Source: an uncultured Deinococcales bacterium
GTDB lineage: Bacteria; Deinococcota; Deinococci; Deinococcales; JAAFIG01
DNA length: 64,000 nucleotides
Assembly (NCBI GenBank): GCA_964244895.1
Contig: CAXTKV010000001.1
Coordinates: 810-64,809, forward strand
Direction of reading: 5' to 3'
The notes under the pieces are model-generated. The model searched no databases and had not been told where the DNA came from. It saw only the letters and a program-made list of their open reading frames with translations. How positions within the stretch are numbered: the first letter of the stretch is position 1; the number at the start of each line of letters is the position of its first letter. The translations under genes and the position numbers were made by a program. Of the stretch, positions 1,488-51,984 are shown piece after piece.

Positions 1488-1547
1488 CTCGAGAAGACCG
1501 TCCTAGACGCAAATTTGATGCTTGGGAATATGCGTGCTGGACGGTAT
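1488..1547. repeat. Palindromic intergenic repeat (IR family), copy
   Basis: ctcgagAAGACCGTCCTAGACGC-(21 nt)-GCGTGCTGGACGGTAT. The arms are inverted copies of the family core. Confidence 0.8.
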
Positions 1548-1662
1548 TTCCGTATCTCTGACAGCGGAGTCTCGATCTCGAGGAATCGTGACTGCACGAG
1601 GGCGCAGCAAGCAGCGCCCCTGCACAAGCGTCTGGATTGCTCGCGCTGACTTCCAACCCAAT

Positions 1663-1725
1663 CTCGAGAACACCGTCCTGGACGGTGTTTTTTGATTCTC
1701 GAGAATATGCGTGCTGGACGGTGTT
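1663..1725. repeat. IR family, composite copy (short perfect palindrome plus an extra right arm)
   Basis: ctcgagAACACCGTCCtgGGACGGTGTT (1669-1689, perfect 21-bp palindrome followed by T6), then ctcgagaatatGCGTGCTGGACGGTGTT. Confidence 0.85.
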
Positions 1726-1781
1726 CCCGTAACTTTATCCGTGTTGGGGATTCGTACAGCACGCTGGTAGACTGTTCCGTC

Positions 1782-3260
1782 ATGACTCAACCCAAACAGG
1801 ACAAGAAAGCCCAACAGTTCGGCGTGACGCCGCGCAGCACGGATTTCAACGAGTGGTACAACGAACTCGTGGTCAAAGCTGACCTGGCCGACTACAGCGC
1901 GATTCGCGGCGCGATGGTCGTCAAGCCCTACGGTTGGGCGCTCTGGGAGAACGTCCAGGCCGTGCTGGACAAGCGCTTCAAGGAAACCGGCCACGAGGCG
2001 CTGGCCTTCCCGATGCTGATCCCGATGAGCTTCCTGCAAAAAGAAGCCCAGCACGTCGAAGGTTTCGCGCCAGAACTCGCCGTTGTGACGCACGCGGGCG
2101 GCGAAGTGCTCGAGGAACCGCTGGTGGTGCGCCCCACGTCCGAAACGATCATCGGTCACACCTGGGCCAAATGGGTGCGCTCGTACCGCGACCTGCCGAT
2201 GCTGCATTACCAGTGGGGCAGCGTCGTGCGCTGGGAGTTGCGACCGAAGCTGTTCCTTCGCACCACCGAATTTTACTGGCACGAGGGCCACACCGCGCAC
2301 GCCACCGGCGAGGAAGCCGTCGCGGAAACGCTGCAACTGCTCGAGATCTACCGCCGTTTCGCGCTCGATTACTGCGCCATGCCCGTGATCGCGGGCCGCA
2401 AGACGGACTCTGAAAAGTTCGCGGGCGCGGTGGACACGTACTCAATAGAAGCCATGATGGGCGACGGCAAGGCATTGCAGGCCGGAACCAGCCATTACCT
2501 CGGGCAGAACTTCGCGAAGGCCTTCGAGATCAGCTTTCAGGACGAGGCGCAAGCGCAGCAGTTCGTCCACACGACGAGTTGGGCGATCAGCACGCGCATC
2601 ATCGGCGGAATCATCATGACGCACGGCGACGACAAAGGACTGATCATGCCGCCCAAGCTCGCGCCCATTCAGGCCGTGATCGTGCCGATCTTCCGCGCGG
2701 AAACCCGCGACCAGATGATTACCGCCGCCAGGGAATTGGCGACCGAACTCCGCGCGATCGGCGTGCGCGTCAGGGTGGACGAACGCGACGGGTTATCGAA
2801 CGGCTTCAAGTACAACGACTGGGAATTGCGCGGCGTGCCGTACCGCCTGGAACTCGGGCCTCGAGACCTTGAAGCGGGCAACGTCGTGGTGGCGTCCCGC
2901 TTGGGCGGCGACAAGGAAATCCTGCCCCGCGCCGAAGTCATATCCACGCTGGGCGCGAAGCTCGAGGCGTTCCAGAACACGCTTCTCGAGAACGCGATCG
3001 CCTTCCGCGATGGGCGCATCAAAACCGCCGACACCTGGGAAGAATTCGTGAAATTGATCGAAGAAGGCTACTTCGTTCGCGCCTTCCACTGCGGCGACCC
3101 GGAGAGTGAAAAAGCCATCAAGGAAGCCACCAAAGCCACCACGCGCAACATCCCGATGGATTCTGAAGGTGCGTTGGGCGCGAGGGAAGAAGGCGTGTGC
3201 GTGCATACGGGCAAACCGAGCGCGTACGGTAAACGGATCATCTTCGCCAGGGCGTATTGA
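1782..3260 (+). CDS. proS: Prolyl-tRNA synthetase, archaeal/eukaryote-like type
   Basis: ORF 1692..3260. Its first 30 codons come from the IR repeat, so the start is moved to ATG 1782 ([30 protein letters not shown]). It has class II aaRS motifs, no bacterial INS editing insertion, and the C-terminal ..[10 protein letters not shown] typical of this ProRS type. Confidence 0.95.
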
Positions 3261-3302
3261 TTCATATGCTCAGTACTATTTGCTTTCTTGGAGGTAATCA
3301 CT

Positions 3303-4058
3303 TTGGGTTTGAAATATTTTTTTAATGGGAAAGTTTTGCCAGAACGAGCAGTCGTTCATATCACACCAATCAATGCTCAAGTTTCCGTAACTGAGACGGA
3401 ACTCCAACTCAAAATTGTTAGTTCAATACTGCTTTCACAAATATCGATGCACGTCGAAATTATCAAAGGCGAAGTTGACTTGGCGTCACTAAAGAATATG
3501 GCTGAAAGTTTCATTCGAGATCAAGTTGACGCACTAGGATTTTTATCTGGATGTGGATACGACGTTGAAATTGACACGTGCTTCAATGAAGCAGGAGAGC
3601 AAATCGTTTTTGGTGTAAACTTCCCTGGTCTCGAGCAAATCAAAGATAAACGATTAGTGAATTATGAAACGGTCTATCAGTTGTCTAATTCGATTCCGAG
3701 CCTCCGAATTGCGCTGGGTGACATTCGAGAAGCTATAAGGTCGCCGAAAGATACCGGCCTCTTCTCTTATCGAGCTATTGAAGCTCTAATGCAAACATTC
3801 AAAATTGCAGAAGACAATGACAAAGACAATTTGGCTTGGGGTCGAATGCAGTCTGGGTTGAATGTATCCCGAGAGGCTTTGATGAAACTCAAAGGATTTG
3901 GTGATTTGCCTAGACATGGGAAAATTACCTCGATTTCCGGCGACGAAAGAACATCCGTATTGACTTTTGCGTGTCAGATAATTGACCGCTACTGCGTCTT
4001 CGCCCGAGAGGGAAATCAACCGCTTGACGTGACAATTTATCCGGTCATTCTCGGATAG
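3303..4058 (+). CDS. Hypothetical protein in an AT-rich single-gene insert (no family recognised)
   Basis: ORF 3288..4058. GGAGG at 3290-3294 sits 8 nt upstream of TTG 3303, and there is no in-frame ATG near the 5' end. The local GC is roughly 35-42% by eye against a much higher GC in the flanks. No TM segment or signal peptide. Confidence 0.6.
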   Translation: MGLKYFFNGKVLPERAVVHITPINAQVSVTETELQLKIVSSILLSQISMHVEIIKGEVDLASLKNMAESFIRDQVDALGFLSGCGYDVEIDTCFNEAGEQIVFGVNFPGLEQIKDKRLVNYETVYQLSNSIPSLRIALGDIREAIRSPKDTGLFSYRAIEALMQTFKIAEDNDKDNLAWGRMQSGLNVSREALMKLKGFGDLPRHGKITSISGDERTSVLTFACQIIDRYCVFAREGNQPLDVTIYPVILG

Positions 4059-4108
4059 GCCAAAGACATTCACGTACAGATTACGATAATTTCAGTCAAA
4101 CCTTTTAC

Positions 4109-4158
4109 CTCGAGAACACCGTCCCACACGCATTCTTCAATTCGCGTCCTGGACGGTT
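4109..4158. repeat. IR family copy
   Basis: ctcgagAACACCGTCCCACACGCattcttcaattcGCGTCCTGGACGGTT. Confidence 0.8.
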
Positions 4159-50662: not shown

Positions 50663-50720
50663 CGTGGTTTCCCTCCGATTCCTTGGATGCCGTTGCGGTT
50701 CTGGCCTTTTCTGGTTCCGG

Positions 50721-50775
50721 GAACATCGTCTGGGACGCGATTTTCCGTCCTCCGAAAAGACTGTGCTGGACGGTC
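50721..50775. repeat. IR family copy (degenerate)
   Basis: GAACATCGTCTGGGACGCgattttccgtcctccgaaaagactGTGCTGGACGGTCTC. Confidence 0.6.
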
Positions 50776-50992
50776 TCGCCAAAATTTCTCGGCTCGAGCA
50801 TTTGATCGAGCGCCAGGCTGAGGGGCGCGGGGACGACAGCACCGTGAGCCTCAAAATGTCGTCAATGCTGGTTCCTCGACAGACCTCGCCGGACGGTGTT
50901 TCTGAGCTTCTCGAGTGAGCCGCGCGAGGGGTGAACGGGTCGTGATTCAGACCCGCGACGTGTTCTGCCATCCTCTACCTGAAGGCGACGCG

Positions 50993-51394
50993 TCATTTGC
51001 CGACAAAGATGTCCGGCGCTGCACCCTTGGGCAACAAGTACGTCACGGCCACCGCCGCCTTGACGCTCCCGTGGTTGTGGGCCTCGTGGATCTGGCCAGT
51101 CGGTTCGTTCCAACTCTGGCCTGGCTTGTAAACCTTGCTGACCCCATCCTGAACCAGCGTGATCTCACCTTCGATCACCATCGCCACGACCGGCCCACCA
51201 TGCGAGTGCAGTGGGAAGACCGCACCGGGCGGGAAGTCCACCACGACCATCATGGCTTTGAAGTCTTTGGGCATGGTCAGGTTGTCGTAGGTTGCGGCCC
51301 AGCGGGCCGAAGGTGCGCTCTGGGTGGCGACGACCGTACCGAGTACGAGTGCCAGGGCGGTCAGAGCGATCGTGGCGCGTGTTGGCTTTTTCAT
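50993..51394 (-). CDS. Secreted cupin-domain protein (133 aa)
   Basis: ORF 50993..51562. ATG 51394 follows AAGGAG. A signal peptide is followed by cupin motifs FPPGAVFPLHSHGGPVVAMVIEGE and GQIHEAHNHG. Confidence 0.8.
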   Translation of the reverse strand: MKKPTRATIALTALALVLGTVVATQSAPSARWAATYDNLTMPKDFKAMMVVVDFPPGAVFPLHSHGGPVVAMVIEGEITLVQDGVSKVYKPGQSWNEPTGQIHEAHNHGSVKAAVAVTYLLPKGAAPDIFVGK

Positions 51395-51432
51395 ATCAAA
51401 CTCCTTCACGTTCATCAGGCGGACGCCGTGGT

Positions 51433-51792
51433 TCAGATGTGACCCGAACGCCCTGTTCGCGAGATTTCTTCCGGTTGCGCACCACAGGGCCGGTTCGGGT
51501 CCTGCTCGCGGATCGCGATCACTTCCGAGCCCTCGAATTCGCACCGGGATGGCTGGACGCACTCAGCCAAGGATTCAGCCAGGTCGGGAGCGCGGGTCGC
51601 GCCGCACACCGCGCGCTGCGGGTCAGGCGATCCACCGGTGATCTCGAGACTTTCGCCGTCCGCGATGAACGAACCGTCGATGCGTCCCGCACGATCCAGC
51701 TGCAACTCGAGCACACAATCGAGATCCCAGAGGCGAGCGAAGAAGCGCCCCGTGATGCTTGCGCTCGAGGTTTCTGGCCAGCGCTGCCGCAA
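51433..51792 (-). CDS. Hypothetical protein (weak call)
   Basis: This is the only ORF here with a protein-like composition. A sampled stretch has GC3 of about 75%. The overlapping ORF 51519..51881 is Arg/Ser-rich noise. No family recognised. Confidence 0.35.
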   Translation of the reverse strand: MRQRWPETSSASITGRFFARLWDLDCVLELQLDRAGRIDGSFIADGESLEITGGSPDPQRAVCGATRAPDLAESLAECVQPSRCEFEGSEVIAIREQDPNRPCGAQPEEISRTGRSGHI

Positions 51793-51938
51793 TGATCTCC
51801 GGGCGCTTTCATGACCCGTCTCCTTTCTGCCGAGTTCAACCGTCCGGCCCGATGCTCGAGCGCGAGGTCATGATGGGGCACGGCTGGTCAGCGCGCGGTT
51901 AGTGATTCGGACTTTTTTGAGCCGATAAACACAGCAAA

Positions 51939-51984
51939 AAGACCGTCTGGGACACGAAATAACGCCCGTGTCCCAGACGGTCTT
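51939..51984 (-). terminator. IR-family-related hairpin acting as terminator of the STAND gene
   Basis: Perfect 18-bp arms AAGACCGTCTGGGACACG / CGTGTCCCAGACGGTCTT with a 10-nt loop. The minus strand continues with TTTTT. It lies 20 nt beyond the stop at 52004. Confidence 0.7.

What the first reader, a model, noticed from the sequence alone, without database searches (positions are those of the whole stretch)
1488..51984. Very dense family of long palindromic intergenic repeats (about one per 2 kb) absent from the island
At least 25 loci carry the same element, with approximate consensus (CTCGAG)AACACCGTCCAGCACGCattc-N-gaatGCGTGCTGGACGGTGTT(CTCGAG). This is a 45-65-bp imperfect palindrome able to form an ~18-24-bp hairpin. 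Variants include a 21-bp perfect palindrome AACACCGTCC(tg/ag)GACGGTGTT (1669-1689, 36246-36266). There are also solo arms (6368, 29445, 48845), arms in swapped order (25805-25848) and an AAGACCGTC subtype (1488, 19626, 48883, 51939). Nearly every intergenic gap of 100 bp or more between 1.4 and 52 kb has one, including the XPB/Bax1 spacer and the rpsO-pnp leader. None occurs after 51,984, although about 1.4 kb of non-coding DNA lies there. Some copies are followed by T-runs and probably terminate transcription (51939-51984). Others have the T-run on the wrong strand for the flanking genes. This looks like a REP/MITE-like or SNR-like element, comparable in concept to the small non-coding repeats reported for Deinococcus radiodurans. 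I cannot say whether this exact family has been described. The copies also create spurious N-terminal extensions in the ORF track (for example ..MRAGRCS.., ..NTVLDGV..).
Basis: seen in the sequence. Interest (0 to 1): 0.6.

Follow-up and report, generated by a model that had tools for sequence, protein, structure and literature searches.

The report
REP-like palindromic repeats in a Deinococcota genome
The window carries a real, very dense family of roughly 46-57-base hairpin-forming intergenic repeats that behaves like the REP/REPIN elements of other bacteria; this is an ordinary kind of element in a new lineage, and its copies are closely tied to a far more unusual genome-wide excess of the hexamer CTCGAG.

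Summary
The arm AACACCGTCCAGCACGC (up to 3 mismatches) occurs 44 times against 0.41 expected. A covariance model finds 24 loci, and solo arms bring the count to 26. All are intergenic and none lies beyond 51,990.

Full copies are 46-47 or 55-57 nt long. They fold into a 10-bp foot, a small internal loop, a 4-5-bp upper stem and an A+T-rich loop. They have no target-site duplication, and 17 of 26 loci lie within 100 nt downstream of a stop codon.

A relative about 90% identical in DNA has an element at every orthologous locus. Its element sequence has drifted as fast as the surrounding intergenic DNA, and covariation is weak. The family therefore looks old, vertically inherited and decaying.

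The family occurs only in a subclade of an uncultured Deinococcota lineage. The repeat-free "island" (55,998-64,000) is a Wadjet defence insertion that the relative lacks at this locus.

Best reading: a REP/REPIN-like element once spread as a single-stranded hairpin. No Y1 transposase gene was seen, and the canonical GT[AG]G foot is absent, so membership in that family is unproven.

Side finding: CTCGAG is 11-25-fold over-represented across this clade and is conserved above background. It sits at the foot or in the loop of many copies.

The parts
1488..1554 (.). 55-nt doublet (arms 1494-1510 and 1532-1548). The left arm is the AAGACC subtype and CTCGAG abuts the left end. It lies in the divergent PGM/proS spacer.
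   Evidence: covariance model 57.8 bits.
1663..1730 (.). Composite copy: the 21-bp perfect palindrome 1669-1689, a loop containing GATTCTCGAGAAT, and a consensus arm at 1709-1725.
   Evidence: model 49 bits; DNA fold -16.4 kcal/mol.
4109..4166 (.). 46-nt doublet between convergent genes, 56 nt after a stop codon. A separate hairpin followed by T's lies at 4223-4258.
   Evidence: (50.9 bits).
6368..6384 (-). Solo arm (1 mismatch), 67 nt upstream of the rpsA start. A weaker arm with 3 mismatches lies at 6514-6530.
8172..8229 (.). 46-nt doublet in the XPB-Bax1 (DUF790) intercistronic spacer, 49 nt after the XPB stop codon.
   Evidence: (48.2 bits).
9817..9884 (.). 56-nt doublet in the divergent XPB / GAF-histidine-kinase spacer, followed by a CTGACCC heptamer array at 9883-9909.
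   Evidence: (53.4 bits).
13261..13319 (.). 47-nt doublet, 15 nt after the histidine-kinase stop codon.
   Evidence: (43.9 bits).
19622..19694 (.). Two short copies. The first is the palindrome GATTCTCGAGAAGACC-N9-GGTCTTCTCGAGAATC (19622-19662). The second is a near-perfect 21-bp palindrome (19668-19688).
   Evidence: I8; 23.8 and 22.9 bits.
20955..21012 (.). 46-nt doublet lying inside an over-long ORF call (20535-24257). The real spacer lies between a short gene and the DUF5122 gene.
   Evidence: (41 bits).
24270..24327 (.). 46-nt doublet with CTCGAG at both ends, 18 nt after a stop codon.
   Evidence: 58 bits; the palindrome extends 7 nt further.
25805..25848 (.). Two arms in tail-to-tail (swapped) order, 5 nt after the ABC-2 permease stop codon. 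This is the usual arrangement in the relative L002.
28268..28326 (.). 47-nt doublet inside the ABC-transporter operon, between the ATPase and permease genes.
   Evidence: 47.5 bits.
29445..29461 (+). Solo arm in a divergent spacer. It is conserved in L001.
30057..30115 (.). 47-nt doublet, 10 nt after a stop codon, with a T-rich tail on the plus strand.
   Evidence: 47.2 bits.
30656..30723 (.). Degenerate copy whose recognisable arm is at 30701-30717.
   Evidence: 21.3 bits.
31804..31862 (.). 47-nt doublet, 1 nt after the glpX stop codon. CTCGAG is on the right side only.
   Evidence: 39.5 bits.
32578..32645 (.). 56-nt doublet with CTCGAG in the loop, between convergent genes.
   Evidence: 51.1 bits.
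33609..33666 (.). 46-nt doublet, 3 nt after the CHAT-protein stop codon.
   Evidence: (50.2 bits).
36240..36272 (.). 21-bp perfect palindrome AACACCGTCCAGGACGGTGTT.
   Evidence: 32.9 bits.
36388..36445 (.). 46-nt doublet, 27 nt after the GGDEF-EAL gene stop codon. Its ortholog in L001 is 56 nt long.
   Evidence: 50.7 bits.
38941..38998 (.). 46-nt doublet, 65 nt after the pnp stop codon, next to a separate hairpin at 38999-39049.
   Evidence: (59.3 bits).
41371..41428 (.). 46-nt doublet in the rpsO-pnp spacer. The T-run is on the strand opposite the genes. The L001 ortholog is a perfect 24-bp-stem palindrome.
   Evidence: (55.4 bits).
43808..43865 (.). 46-nt doublet whose 17-nt arms match the consensus exactly and pair over 20 nt without a mismatch. 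It lies in a divergent spacer.
   Evidence: I2; 55 bits; -26.9 kcal/mol, z -12.2.
48844..49012 (.). BIME-like cluster of four arms in alternating orientation (-,+,-,+). It includes a perfect 56-nt AAGACC-type doublet at 48883-48938.
   Evidence: (47.5 bits).
50716..50783 (.). Degenerate 56-nt doublet. It is intergenic according to the gene calls of the relative.
   Evidence: 39.4 bits.
51933..51990 (-). AAGACC-type 46-nt perfect hairpin followed by TTTTTGCT on the minus strand, 19 nt after the AAA/TPR gene stop codon. It is terminator-like, and its position is conserved in L080 and L081.
   Evidence: I5.
55998..64000 (.). Repeat-free island: a Wadjet system (jetA 56519-57997, jetB 57987-58577, jetC 58498-61899, jetD split into 61896-62570 and 62522-63046) plus a YhcG nuclease gene. 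GC is 0.55-0.59. The close relative does not have it at this locus.

Best explanation
This is a lineage-specific family of REP/REPIN-like palindromic elements.

Anatomy. A full copy has two 17-nt arms (AACACCGTCCAGCACGC and its complement) around an A+T-rich spacer. The spacer is either 12-13 nt, or about 22 nt and usually carrying CTCGAG. As one strand of DNA or RNA the copy folds into a 10-bp foot, an internal loop of 1-3 nt at arm positions 11-13, a 4-5-bp upper stem and a loop.

Proposed history (inferred). The family most likely multiplied in an ancestor of this subclade as a single-stranded DNA hairpin handled by a Y1 (HUH) REP-associated transposase. It inserted without target duplication, often directly 3' of (CTC)GAG and usually just behind a stop codon.

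What is shown. Since then the copies have been inherited vertically. They have kept their positions and drifted at about the rate of the surrounding intergenic DNA. They have also lost an arm, lost the centre (giving the 21-bp palindromes) or gained about 10 nt in the loop. A Wadjet defence island that the close relative lacks at this locus has none.

Function (inferred). Where a copy is transcribed it supplies a 3' hairpin, and one copy is a credible terminator. These look like by-products rather than the reason the family exists.
For: - Dispersed and far beyond chance: 44 arm matches against 0.41 expected. There are 24 model loci, all intergenic, although only about 11% of the window is non-coding.
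- Hairpins: DNA folds range from -10 to -27 kcal/mol with z-scores from -2.7 to -12. 86% of arm cells pair.
- Stereotyped length classes and homologous loops.
- No target-site duplication.
- GAG lies immediately 5' of the foot in 11 of 20 doublets on the plus strand, against CTC 3' of the foot in 2 of 20.
- 17 of 26 loci lie within 100 nt downstream of a stop codon.
- All 13-14 loci are orthologous in a relative about 90% identical in DNA, with loop indels and arm changes.
- Element columns are 76% identical, against 74% for other intergenic DNA and 91% for coding sequence.
- Copies within the genome are on average 71% identical, and the best pair is 87%. The family is therefore old.
- Distribution is subclade-specific. 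It is present in L001/L080, in L081 and in five short metagenome contigs. A variant family is present in L002/L003. It is absent from L077-L079, L083, Deinobacterium chartae (L082) and Deinococcus grandis (L084).
- The relative's own DNA at the place where the window has the island carries 4 elements in 9 kb.
Against: - No Y1/RAYT or any other transposase family appears among about 30 window proteins scanned against Pfam.
- None appears in the precomputed Pfam lists of the genes called on L001, L002/L003, L080 and L081. Only about 136 kb of DNA from genomes carrying the family was seen, and RAYTs are usually single-copy.
- The canonical GT[AG]G tetranucleotide at the hairpin foot (PMC6006769, PMC3333891) is absent.
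- There is no presence/absence polymorphism between two genomes about 10% apart in 22 kb, so current mobility is not shown.
- The GAG-side polarity is 10:1 in the window but 2:2 in L081. The internal asymmetry (which arm is the more degenerate) is mixed at 9:6.
- Covariation is barely above shuffles: score 0.143 against 0.124, reached by 22 of 500 shuffles.
Confidence: 0.55

Rival explanations
1. The hairpins are kept because they work in RNA, as terminators or as 3'-end hairpins that protect mRNA. On this view the repeat family is a set of selected RNA structures.
For: - 17 of 26 loci lie within 100 nt downstream of a stop codon.
- 51939-51984 is a 20-bp stem with a T-run on the correct strand, and its position is conserved in three lineages.
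- Several copies sit inside operons: XPB-Bax1, the ABC transporter and rpsO-pnp.
Against: - Only one copy in 32-52 kb passes the terminator-like scan, and such sites are not enriched overall (18 found against 15.7 in shuffles).
- Six loci lie in divergent promoter spacers.
- Separate hairpin-plus-T-run sites stand next to the copies at 4223-4258 and 38999-39049.
- G.T and A.C mismatches are equal on the plus strand (17:17). On the transcribed strand G.U is the rarer type (8 against 17), by my hand count.
- Covariation is weak.
- Element sequence drifts as fast as the neighbouring intergenic DNA.
Confidence: 0.15
2. The arms are binding sites for an abundant DNA-binding protein, such as a nucleoid-associated factor or a gyrase-like enzyme, that organises the chromosome. 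On this view the palindrome reflects binding by a dimer.
For: - The core ACCGTC/GACGGT is invariant or nearly so in 30 copies.
- The sites are inverted repeats.
- Positions are retained between relatives.
- E. coli REPs are known to bind IHF, Pol I and gyrase (PMC6006769).
Against: - Half-site spacing and order are not fixed. Spacers of 12, 13 and about 22 nt occur, as do abutting arms (the 21-bp palindromes), tail-to-tail pairs and solo arms.
- There is no excess sequence conservation over the surrounding intergenic DNA.
- No candidate protein has been identified.
Confidence: 0.1
3. The repeats belong to the same system as the genome-wide CTCGAG signal. A CTCGAG-recognising activity (a methylase, nuclease, uptake or repair function) either targets the hairpins to CTCGAG or favours elements that carry it at the foot and the apex.
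For: - CTCGAG abuts the left foot of 8 of 20 doublets. It also lies in the loop of most long-loop (55-57-nt) copies in the window and relatives.
- The hexamer is 11-25-fold over-represented in every genome of the clade examined, including every one that carries the family. It is conserved above background in non-coding DNA: 81% of sites against 53% for other hexamers.
Against: - The CTCGAG excess is much wider than the repeat family. L077-L079, L083 and Deinobacterium have the hexamer excess without the repeats.
- Half of the copies have no CTCGAG at either end.
Confidence: 0.1
4. It is a classical MITE: a deletion derivative of a DDE-transposase insertion sequence that moves by cut-and-paste.
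For: It is short, non-coding, multi-copy and has inverted-repeat ends.
Against: - No target-site duplication exceeds 2 nt in 20 copies.
- The whole element is one palindrome, with no internal unique segment.
- No insertion sequence with matching ends was seen.
- There are no matches in the plasmid, phage or viral collections.
Confidence: 0.04

Closest known systems
E. coli REP/BIME elements and their Y1 transposase TnpA-REP (RAYT)
   Same: - High-copy, strictly intergenic imperfect palindromes of about 30-50 nt with a mismatch in the stem.
- A conserved short motif 5' of the foot.
[quoted passage not shown]
- A location mostly behind genes or inside operons.
- No target duplication.
   Different: - The foot motif here is (CTC)GAG, not GT[AG]G.
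- No RAYT gene has been found.
- Density is higher, about 1 per 2 kb locally. E. coli K-12 has 584 REPs (PMC3333891).
- Some copies lie in divergent promoter spacers.
Pseudomonas REPINs (REP doublets forming hairpins) with RAYTs
   Same: - The doublet of two inverted arms around a short spacer is the main unit.
- Singlets look like decay products.
- The family is vertically inherited and persists across related species (PMC3116915; bioRxiv 10.1101/2021.07.10.451892).
   Different: - There are no near-identical copies and no presence/absence differences in the data, so no sign of ongoing replication.
- The RAYT association is untested.
Deinococcus radiodurans small non-coding repeats (SNRs)
   Same: Both are multi-copy non-coding repeats with a mosaic make-up in a member of the Deinococcota. 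Both are lineage-restricted: SNRs are absent from D. geothermalis (PMC1978522).
   Different: - The SNRs are described only as at least nine mosaic types with 295 copies (PMC1978522).
- This family is a single short palindrome, and it is absent from the one Deinococcus locus examined (L084).
Subterminal hairpins of IS200/IS605 elements (IS608, ISDra2)
   Same: Both are hairpin-forming, insert without duplication 3' of a short target, and have a strand-specific target side (PMC3333891, PMC6006769).
   Different: - There are no left/right end pair, no cargo and no tnpA or tnpB gene.
- The strand bias is seen in one 50-kb window only.
HIP1 (GCGATCGC) of cyanobacteria. This is the comparator for the CTCGAG side finding, not for the repeats.
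   Same: Both are short palindromes that are hyper-abundant in coding and non-coding DNA, conserved more than the background, and slightly more evenly spaced than random (PMC5861425, PMC4390886).
   Different: - CTCGAG is a hexamer, in a different phylum.
- It mostly sits in the Leu-Glu codon frame.
- No methyltransferase link was examined.

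Membership tests
Canonical REP / REPtron (RAYT-associated) | Many copies of an imperfect palindrome confined to intergenic DNA. | tested here: met
   44 arm matches against 0.41 expected. All 24 model loci are intergenic. DNA folds range from -10 to -27 kcal/mol.
Canonical REP / REPtron (RAYT-associated) | A GTAG or GTGG tetranucleotide 0-2 nt 5' of the hairpin foot (PMC6006769, PMC3333891). | tested here: not met
   The 5' flank is CTCGAG or xxxGAG in 11 of 20 copies. No copy has GT[AG]G at the foot.
Canonical REP / REPtron (RAYT-associated) | A Y1/HUH transposase gene (Pfam Y1_Tnp) flanked by copies of the same repeat. | not testable with these tools
   None was found among about 30 window proteins or in the gene lists of L001, L002/L003, L080 and L081.
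REPIN | Two inverted REP arms separated by a short spacer form the prevalent unit, and singlets are rarer remnants. | tested here: met
   There are 20 doublets, against about 5 solo arms and 3 short palindromes.
REPIN | Evidence of replication within the genome: near-identical copies, or insertion polymorphism between strains. | tested here: not met
   The best pair of copies is 87% identical and the mean is 71%. All loci are shared with the relative in 22 kb.
MITE (DDE-transposon derived) | Target-site duplication flanking terminal inverted repeats. | tested here: not met
   The longest abutting direct repeat is 0-2 nt in 20 copies.
Intrinsic (Rho-independent) terminator | A G+C-rich stem with a short loop, followed by a T-run on the transcribed strand. 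| tested here: not met
   This is met by 51939-51984 only. The other copies have loops of 10-23 nt and lack a T-run, or carry it on the wrong strand.
Rfam RNA families | A match to a curated covariance model. | tested here: not met
   Only the tRNA reaches the gathering score. In 36-44 kb the copies give only chance-level microRNA-model matches, E 0.3-0.6.
D. radiodurans SNR families | Sequence similarity to one of the SNR consensus sequences. | not tested
Only the description in PMC1978522 was read.
Highly iterated palindrome (HIP-like), tested for CTCGAG | A palindrome many-fold over-represented in coding and non-coding DNA and conserved above background. | tested here: met
   - 301 sites against about 22 expected; it is the commonest hexamer.
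- Observed/expected is 11-25 in ten loci of the clade, 0.4 in D. grandis, and a median of 0.39 in 57 unrelated loci.
- 96% of frame-0 coding sites are conserved against 63.5% for other hexamers. For non-coding sites the figures are 81% against 53%.

The most novel reading that the evidence does not exclude
The hairpin repeats and the CTCGAG excess may be two faces of one system that has not been described. In this Deinococcota clade, which includes Deinobacterium chartae, CTCGAG is maintained at about 5 sites per kb in genes and spacers, enough to double the Leu-Glu dipeptide frequency in this window's genes. The repeats would then be hairpins that insert at, or present, this hexamer at their foot and apex. 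That would make them the mobile or structural arm of a HIP1-like genome-marking mechanism (uptake, repair or methylation-directed) outside the cyanobacteria.
Probability: 0.15. Interest if true: 0.7.

Novelty: new member of a known kind. Interest (0 to 1): 0.4.

Why it matters
REP-type repeats are well studied in Proteobacteria and little studied elsewhere. A family this dense (about one per 2 kb, in nearly every spacer of 100 bp or more) in an uncultured Deinococcota lineage has three uses:
- It extends the known range of such elements.
- It gives a practical marker for telling native DNA from recently acquired DNA. The Wadjet island, which the close relative lacks at this locus, has none.
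- It warns annotators that ORF starts run into the copies.

If a cognate Y1 transposase with a non-GTAG foot motif exists, it would widen the known specificity of RAYTs.

The associated CTCGAG excess is conserved, shapes protein sequence and is specific to this clade. It is the more surprising observation. It offers a second, independent case for the open question of what highly iterated palindromes do, and one host, Deinobacterium chartae, is a named species with a sequenced genome.

Tried and rejected
- Genome-collection scan.
- Exact-protein look-ups of two window proteins, PNPase and PGM. Neither is on record, so the window's own contig could not be extended.
- Metagenome scan with a two-arm pattern. 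It returned 16 stretches. Five short contigs carry the family and the rest are chance matches in high-GC DNA.
- Viral, plasmid and phage collections. No copies were found.
- Rfam. Nothing beyond the tRNA.
- Covariation as proof of a selected structure. The high pairing (86%) is matched by shuffles (85%), so it reflects the palindromic consensus and is inconclusive.
- Compensated changes between orthologs. Three were seen against 1-2 expected, which is not significant. They could equally come from template switching within quasi-palindromes.
- RNA-strand test by G.U against A.C mismatches (hand count). No bias in the expected direction.
- Internal polarity of copies. Mixed; only the flank motif is polar.
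- Integron attC sites were considered and dropped. The flanking genes are housekeeping genes, syntenic and in both orientations.
- CRISPR was dropped because there is no regular array.
- DNA uptake sequences were dropped for the arms, because the arms are excluded from genes.
- A regulon operator was dropped because unrelated genes in all contexts carry copies.
- The arm-like match beside tRNA-Leu (41996-42012) is probably the tRNA 3' end plus a terminator stem rather than a copy.

Full report
**Observation**

The arm AACACCGTCCAGCACGC, allowing three mismatches, occurs 44 times on the two strands, against 0.41 expected from dinucleotide shuffles. Inverted-repeat detection recovers the same sites independently.

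Grouping the arms gives 20 doublets, about five solo arms, three 21-bp palindromes, one tail-to-tail pair and one cluster of four alternating arms. That makes 26 loci between 1.49 and 51.98 kb.

A covariance model built from 30 copies (alignment A1; model R1) was run over the whole window with filters off. It lists 24 loci at E<0.01. All are intergenic and the last is at 51933-51990. The model was built from these copies, so its value here is that it finds nothing new in genes or in 52-64 kb.

**Anatomy**

Eleven doublets are exactly 46 nt (17 + 12 + 17), four are 47 nt and five are 55-57 nt. The outer ten bases of each arm (AACACCGTCC / GGACGGTGTT) are nearly invariant. Arm positions 11 and 13 are unpaired in about half of the copies.

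The usual fold is therefore a 10-12-bp foot, a small internal loop, a 4-5-bp upper stem and a 10-12-nt A+T-rich loop. Fold energies as DNA are -10 to -27 kcal/mol, and at most 2 of 200 shuffles fold as well.

The loops are related to one another (GATTC..GAAT). The long-loop class usually carries CTCGAG at the apex, as in GATTCTCGAGAAT. No copy has a target-site duplication longer than 2 nt.

The base triplet immediately 5' of the foot on the plus strand is GAG in 11 of 20 doublets, and the full CTCGAG in 8. The mirror CTC 3' of the foot occurs in only 2. That is ten left-only against one right-only (binomial p about 0.01). Which arm is the more degenerate is mixed, however (9:6). In the relative L081 the flank polarity is 2:2.

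**Context**

The organism is an uncultured member of the Deinococcota. Its PNPase is 98% identical to one on a 1.46-Mb ENA contig, 84% identical to JGI contigs, about 72% to Deinobacterium chartae and about 69% to Deinococcus.

Genes around the copies are ordinary: PGM, proS, rpsA, XPB-Bax1, sensor kinases, an ABC transporter, glpX, rpsO-pnp and tRNA-Leu.

Seventeen of 26 loci lie within 100 nt downstream of a stop codon, several of them within 20 nt. Six lie in divergent spacers and some lie inside operons. By my reading of the gap listing, 19 of 21 spacers of 100 bp or more before 52 kb carry at least an arm.

Only 51939-51984 (minus strand, behind the AAA/TPR gene) passes a terminator-like scan of 32-52 kb. 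Such sites are not enriched overall. Separate hairpins followed by T's stand beside the copies at 4223-4258 and 38999-39049.

**The island**

Window 56.5-63 kb encodes a Wadjet system: DUF3375 (JetA), DUF4194/MksE (JetB), an SMC-like ATPase (JetC), and DUF3322 plus JetD_C in two frames (JetD). A YhcG nuclease gene follows. GC is 0.55-0.59.

The close relative's contig is collinear with the window only up to 55,997. Beyond that point it has different genes (release factor, BrkB, astacin) and four copies of the repeat in 9 kb.

So 55,998-64,000 is absent from the relative at this locus, most simply an acquired insertion, and it lacks the repeat. The statistical weight is modest because it rests on two spacers of 100 bp or more (p about 0.01-0.03). 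The island nevertheless has the normal CTCGAG density, which suggests a donor from the same clade.

**Evolution**

L001 aligns with window 29,129-51,118 at 84-98% nucleotide identity. Every element locus in that stretch has an ortholog in the other genome, so no insertion polymorphism is seen.

Outside a 98%-identical block, element columns are 76% identical, other intergenic columns 74% and coding columns 91%. Orthologous arms differ at 15-19% of sites. Three differences are compensated on both arms, against one to two expected.

In the rpsO-pnp spacer the relative's copy has become a perfect 24-bp-stem palindrome, while the window's copy has different, partly compensated arms. Loops differ by about 10-nt indels, giving 46 nt against 56 nt.

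Across 30 copies, pairing is 86.3%, but shuffling the partners gives 85.4%. The covariation score is 0.143 against 0.124, reached by 22 of 500 shuffles. Hairpin potential is thus explained by the palindromic consensus, and selection for structure is not demonstrated.

Within the genome, copies are on average 71% identical and the best pair is 87%. Together these results describe an old burst followed by vertical inheritance and near-neutral decay.

**Distribution**

The family occurs in L001/L080, in L081 and in five short metagenome contigs. L081 comes from a relative whose AAA/TPR protein is 76% identical; the copy behind that gene is positionally conserved there.

L002/L003 carry a related family (GCGTCCTACACGGTGTT), mostly as tail-to-tail pairs. 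The family is absent from L077-L079, L083, Deinobacterium chartae (L082) and Deinococcus grandis (L084). It is also absent from the plasmid, phage and viral collections. No paper in the held library contains the arm sequence in a relevant context.

**Interpretation**

In kind, the element is a REP/REPIN-like repeat:
- it is intergenic and high-copy;
- it is an imperfect palindrome with a stem mismatch;
- it has a short motif at the foot;
- it has no target duplication;
- it lies mostly behind genes.

The comparison rests on PMC3333891, PMC6006769 and PMC3116915. Membership in the canonical RAYT-associated family is not established. The defining GT[AG]G is absent. No Y1 transposase was seen among about 30 window proteins or in the gene lists of the relatives that carry the family, although only about 136 kb could be inspected. 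Spread as a single-stranded hairpin, inserted 3' of (CTC)GAG, is therefore an inference from anatomy and analogy.

The rivals are each less well supported:
- An RNA-level function. There is one terminator-like copy in 32-52 kb, no G.U bias, and copies in promoter spacers.
- A protein-binding array. Half-site geometry is variable and there is no excess conservation.
- A DDE-type MITE. There is no target duplication.

D. radiodurans SNRs are a conceptual neighbour only (PMC1978522). No sequence comparison was possible.

**Side finding: CTCGAG**

CTCGAG is the commonest hexamer of the window, with 301 sites against about 22 expected. Of these, 197 are in the Leu-Glu codon frame and 41 lie in 7.2 kb of non-coding DNA.

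Leu-Glu is the most over-represented dipeptide (305 against 147 expected). 63% of these dipeptides are encoded CTC-GAG, against 16% expected from codon usage.

The excess (observed/expected 11-25) holds in every locus of the clade examined, across GC contents of 45% to 70% and including Deinobacterium chartae. It is 0.4 in D. grandis, and the median is 0.39 in 57 unrelated bacterial loci.

Between the window and L001, 96% of in-frame sites are conserved against 63.5% for other in-frame hexamers. For non-coding sites the figures are 81% against 53%. Spacing is slightly more even than random (CV 0.88; about 1% of simulations are as low).

No paper linking CTCGAG to iterated palindromes or to Deinococcota was found. 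The closest analogue is cyanobacterial HIP1 (PMC5861425, PMC4390886). By my count about 40% of the non-coding CTCGAG sites belong to the repeats, so the two features may be mechanistically connected. This is not shown.

**Verdict**

This is a new member of a known kind of element, of moderate interest. The CTCGAG excess is a more unusual lead and deserves its own follow-up.

Noticed in passing
Whole window; also L001-L003, L077-L083: CTCGAG is hyper-abundant. The window has 301 sites against about 22 expected, and it is the commonest hexamer. The excess is found in coding and non-coding DNA. It doubles the Leu-Glu dipeptide frequency, is conserved between relatives far above background, and is slightly evenly spaced. 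It is shared by the whole clade, including Deinobacterium chartae, but not by Deinococcus grandis. It looks like a HIP1-like iterated palindrome, and no description was found in the held literature.
   Followed up: partly
window 56519-63046: A complete Wadjet (JetABCD) anti-plasmid system lies in a lower-GC insertion that the close relative lacks at this locus. jetD is split into two overlapping frames (61896-62570 and 62522-63046), which indicates either a frameshift or a sequencing error.
   Followed up: partly
window 43768-50117 against L001 1063-7412: A 6.3-kb block is 98% identical to the relative, while the flanks are 84-92% identical. This suggests recent homologous exchange between the two lineages.
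   Followed up: no
window 9883-9909, 28389-28410, 30608-30659, 30741-30774, 36471-36498: Short tandem arrays of heptamers (CTGACCC, CCCTGAG, AGCCGCA, ACCCGAC; 3-5 units) lie in or at the edge of spacers, several of them right next to a palindromic repeat.
   Followed up: no
window 48247-48295 and 13430-13470: There are perfect tandem duplications of an 18-mer (2.7 copies) and a 20-mer (2 copies) in spacers.
   Followed up: no
window 3288-4058: A 256-aa ORF beside proS has an atypically low third-position GC (0.40 against about 0.8 elsewhere) and no Pfam match. It is probably a foreign gene.
   Followed up: no
window 6913-9841: A bacterial XPB helicase (with its damage-recognition domain) lies in an operon with a Bax1/DUF790 nuclease, the pairing best known from archaea. 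A repeat copy sits in the spacer between them.
   Followed up: no
L001 9838-9886 against window 41377-41422: In the rpsO-pnp spacer the relative's copy is a perfect 24-bp-stem palindrome. The window's copy differs at paired positions in both arms. L002 has two tail-to-tail copies in the same spacer. This may reflect quasi-palindrome correction, or reuse of the copy as a pnp leader hairpin.
   Followed up: partly
window 41913-41999: The only tRNA in the window is tRNA-Leu(GAG), which reads the CUC codon that makes up half of CTCGAG. An arm-like 17-mer overlaps its 3' end and the stem of the following terminator, and is probably not a true copy.
   Followed up: no
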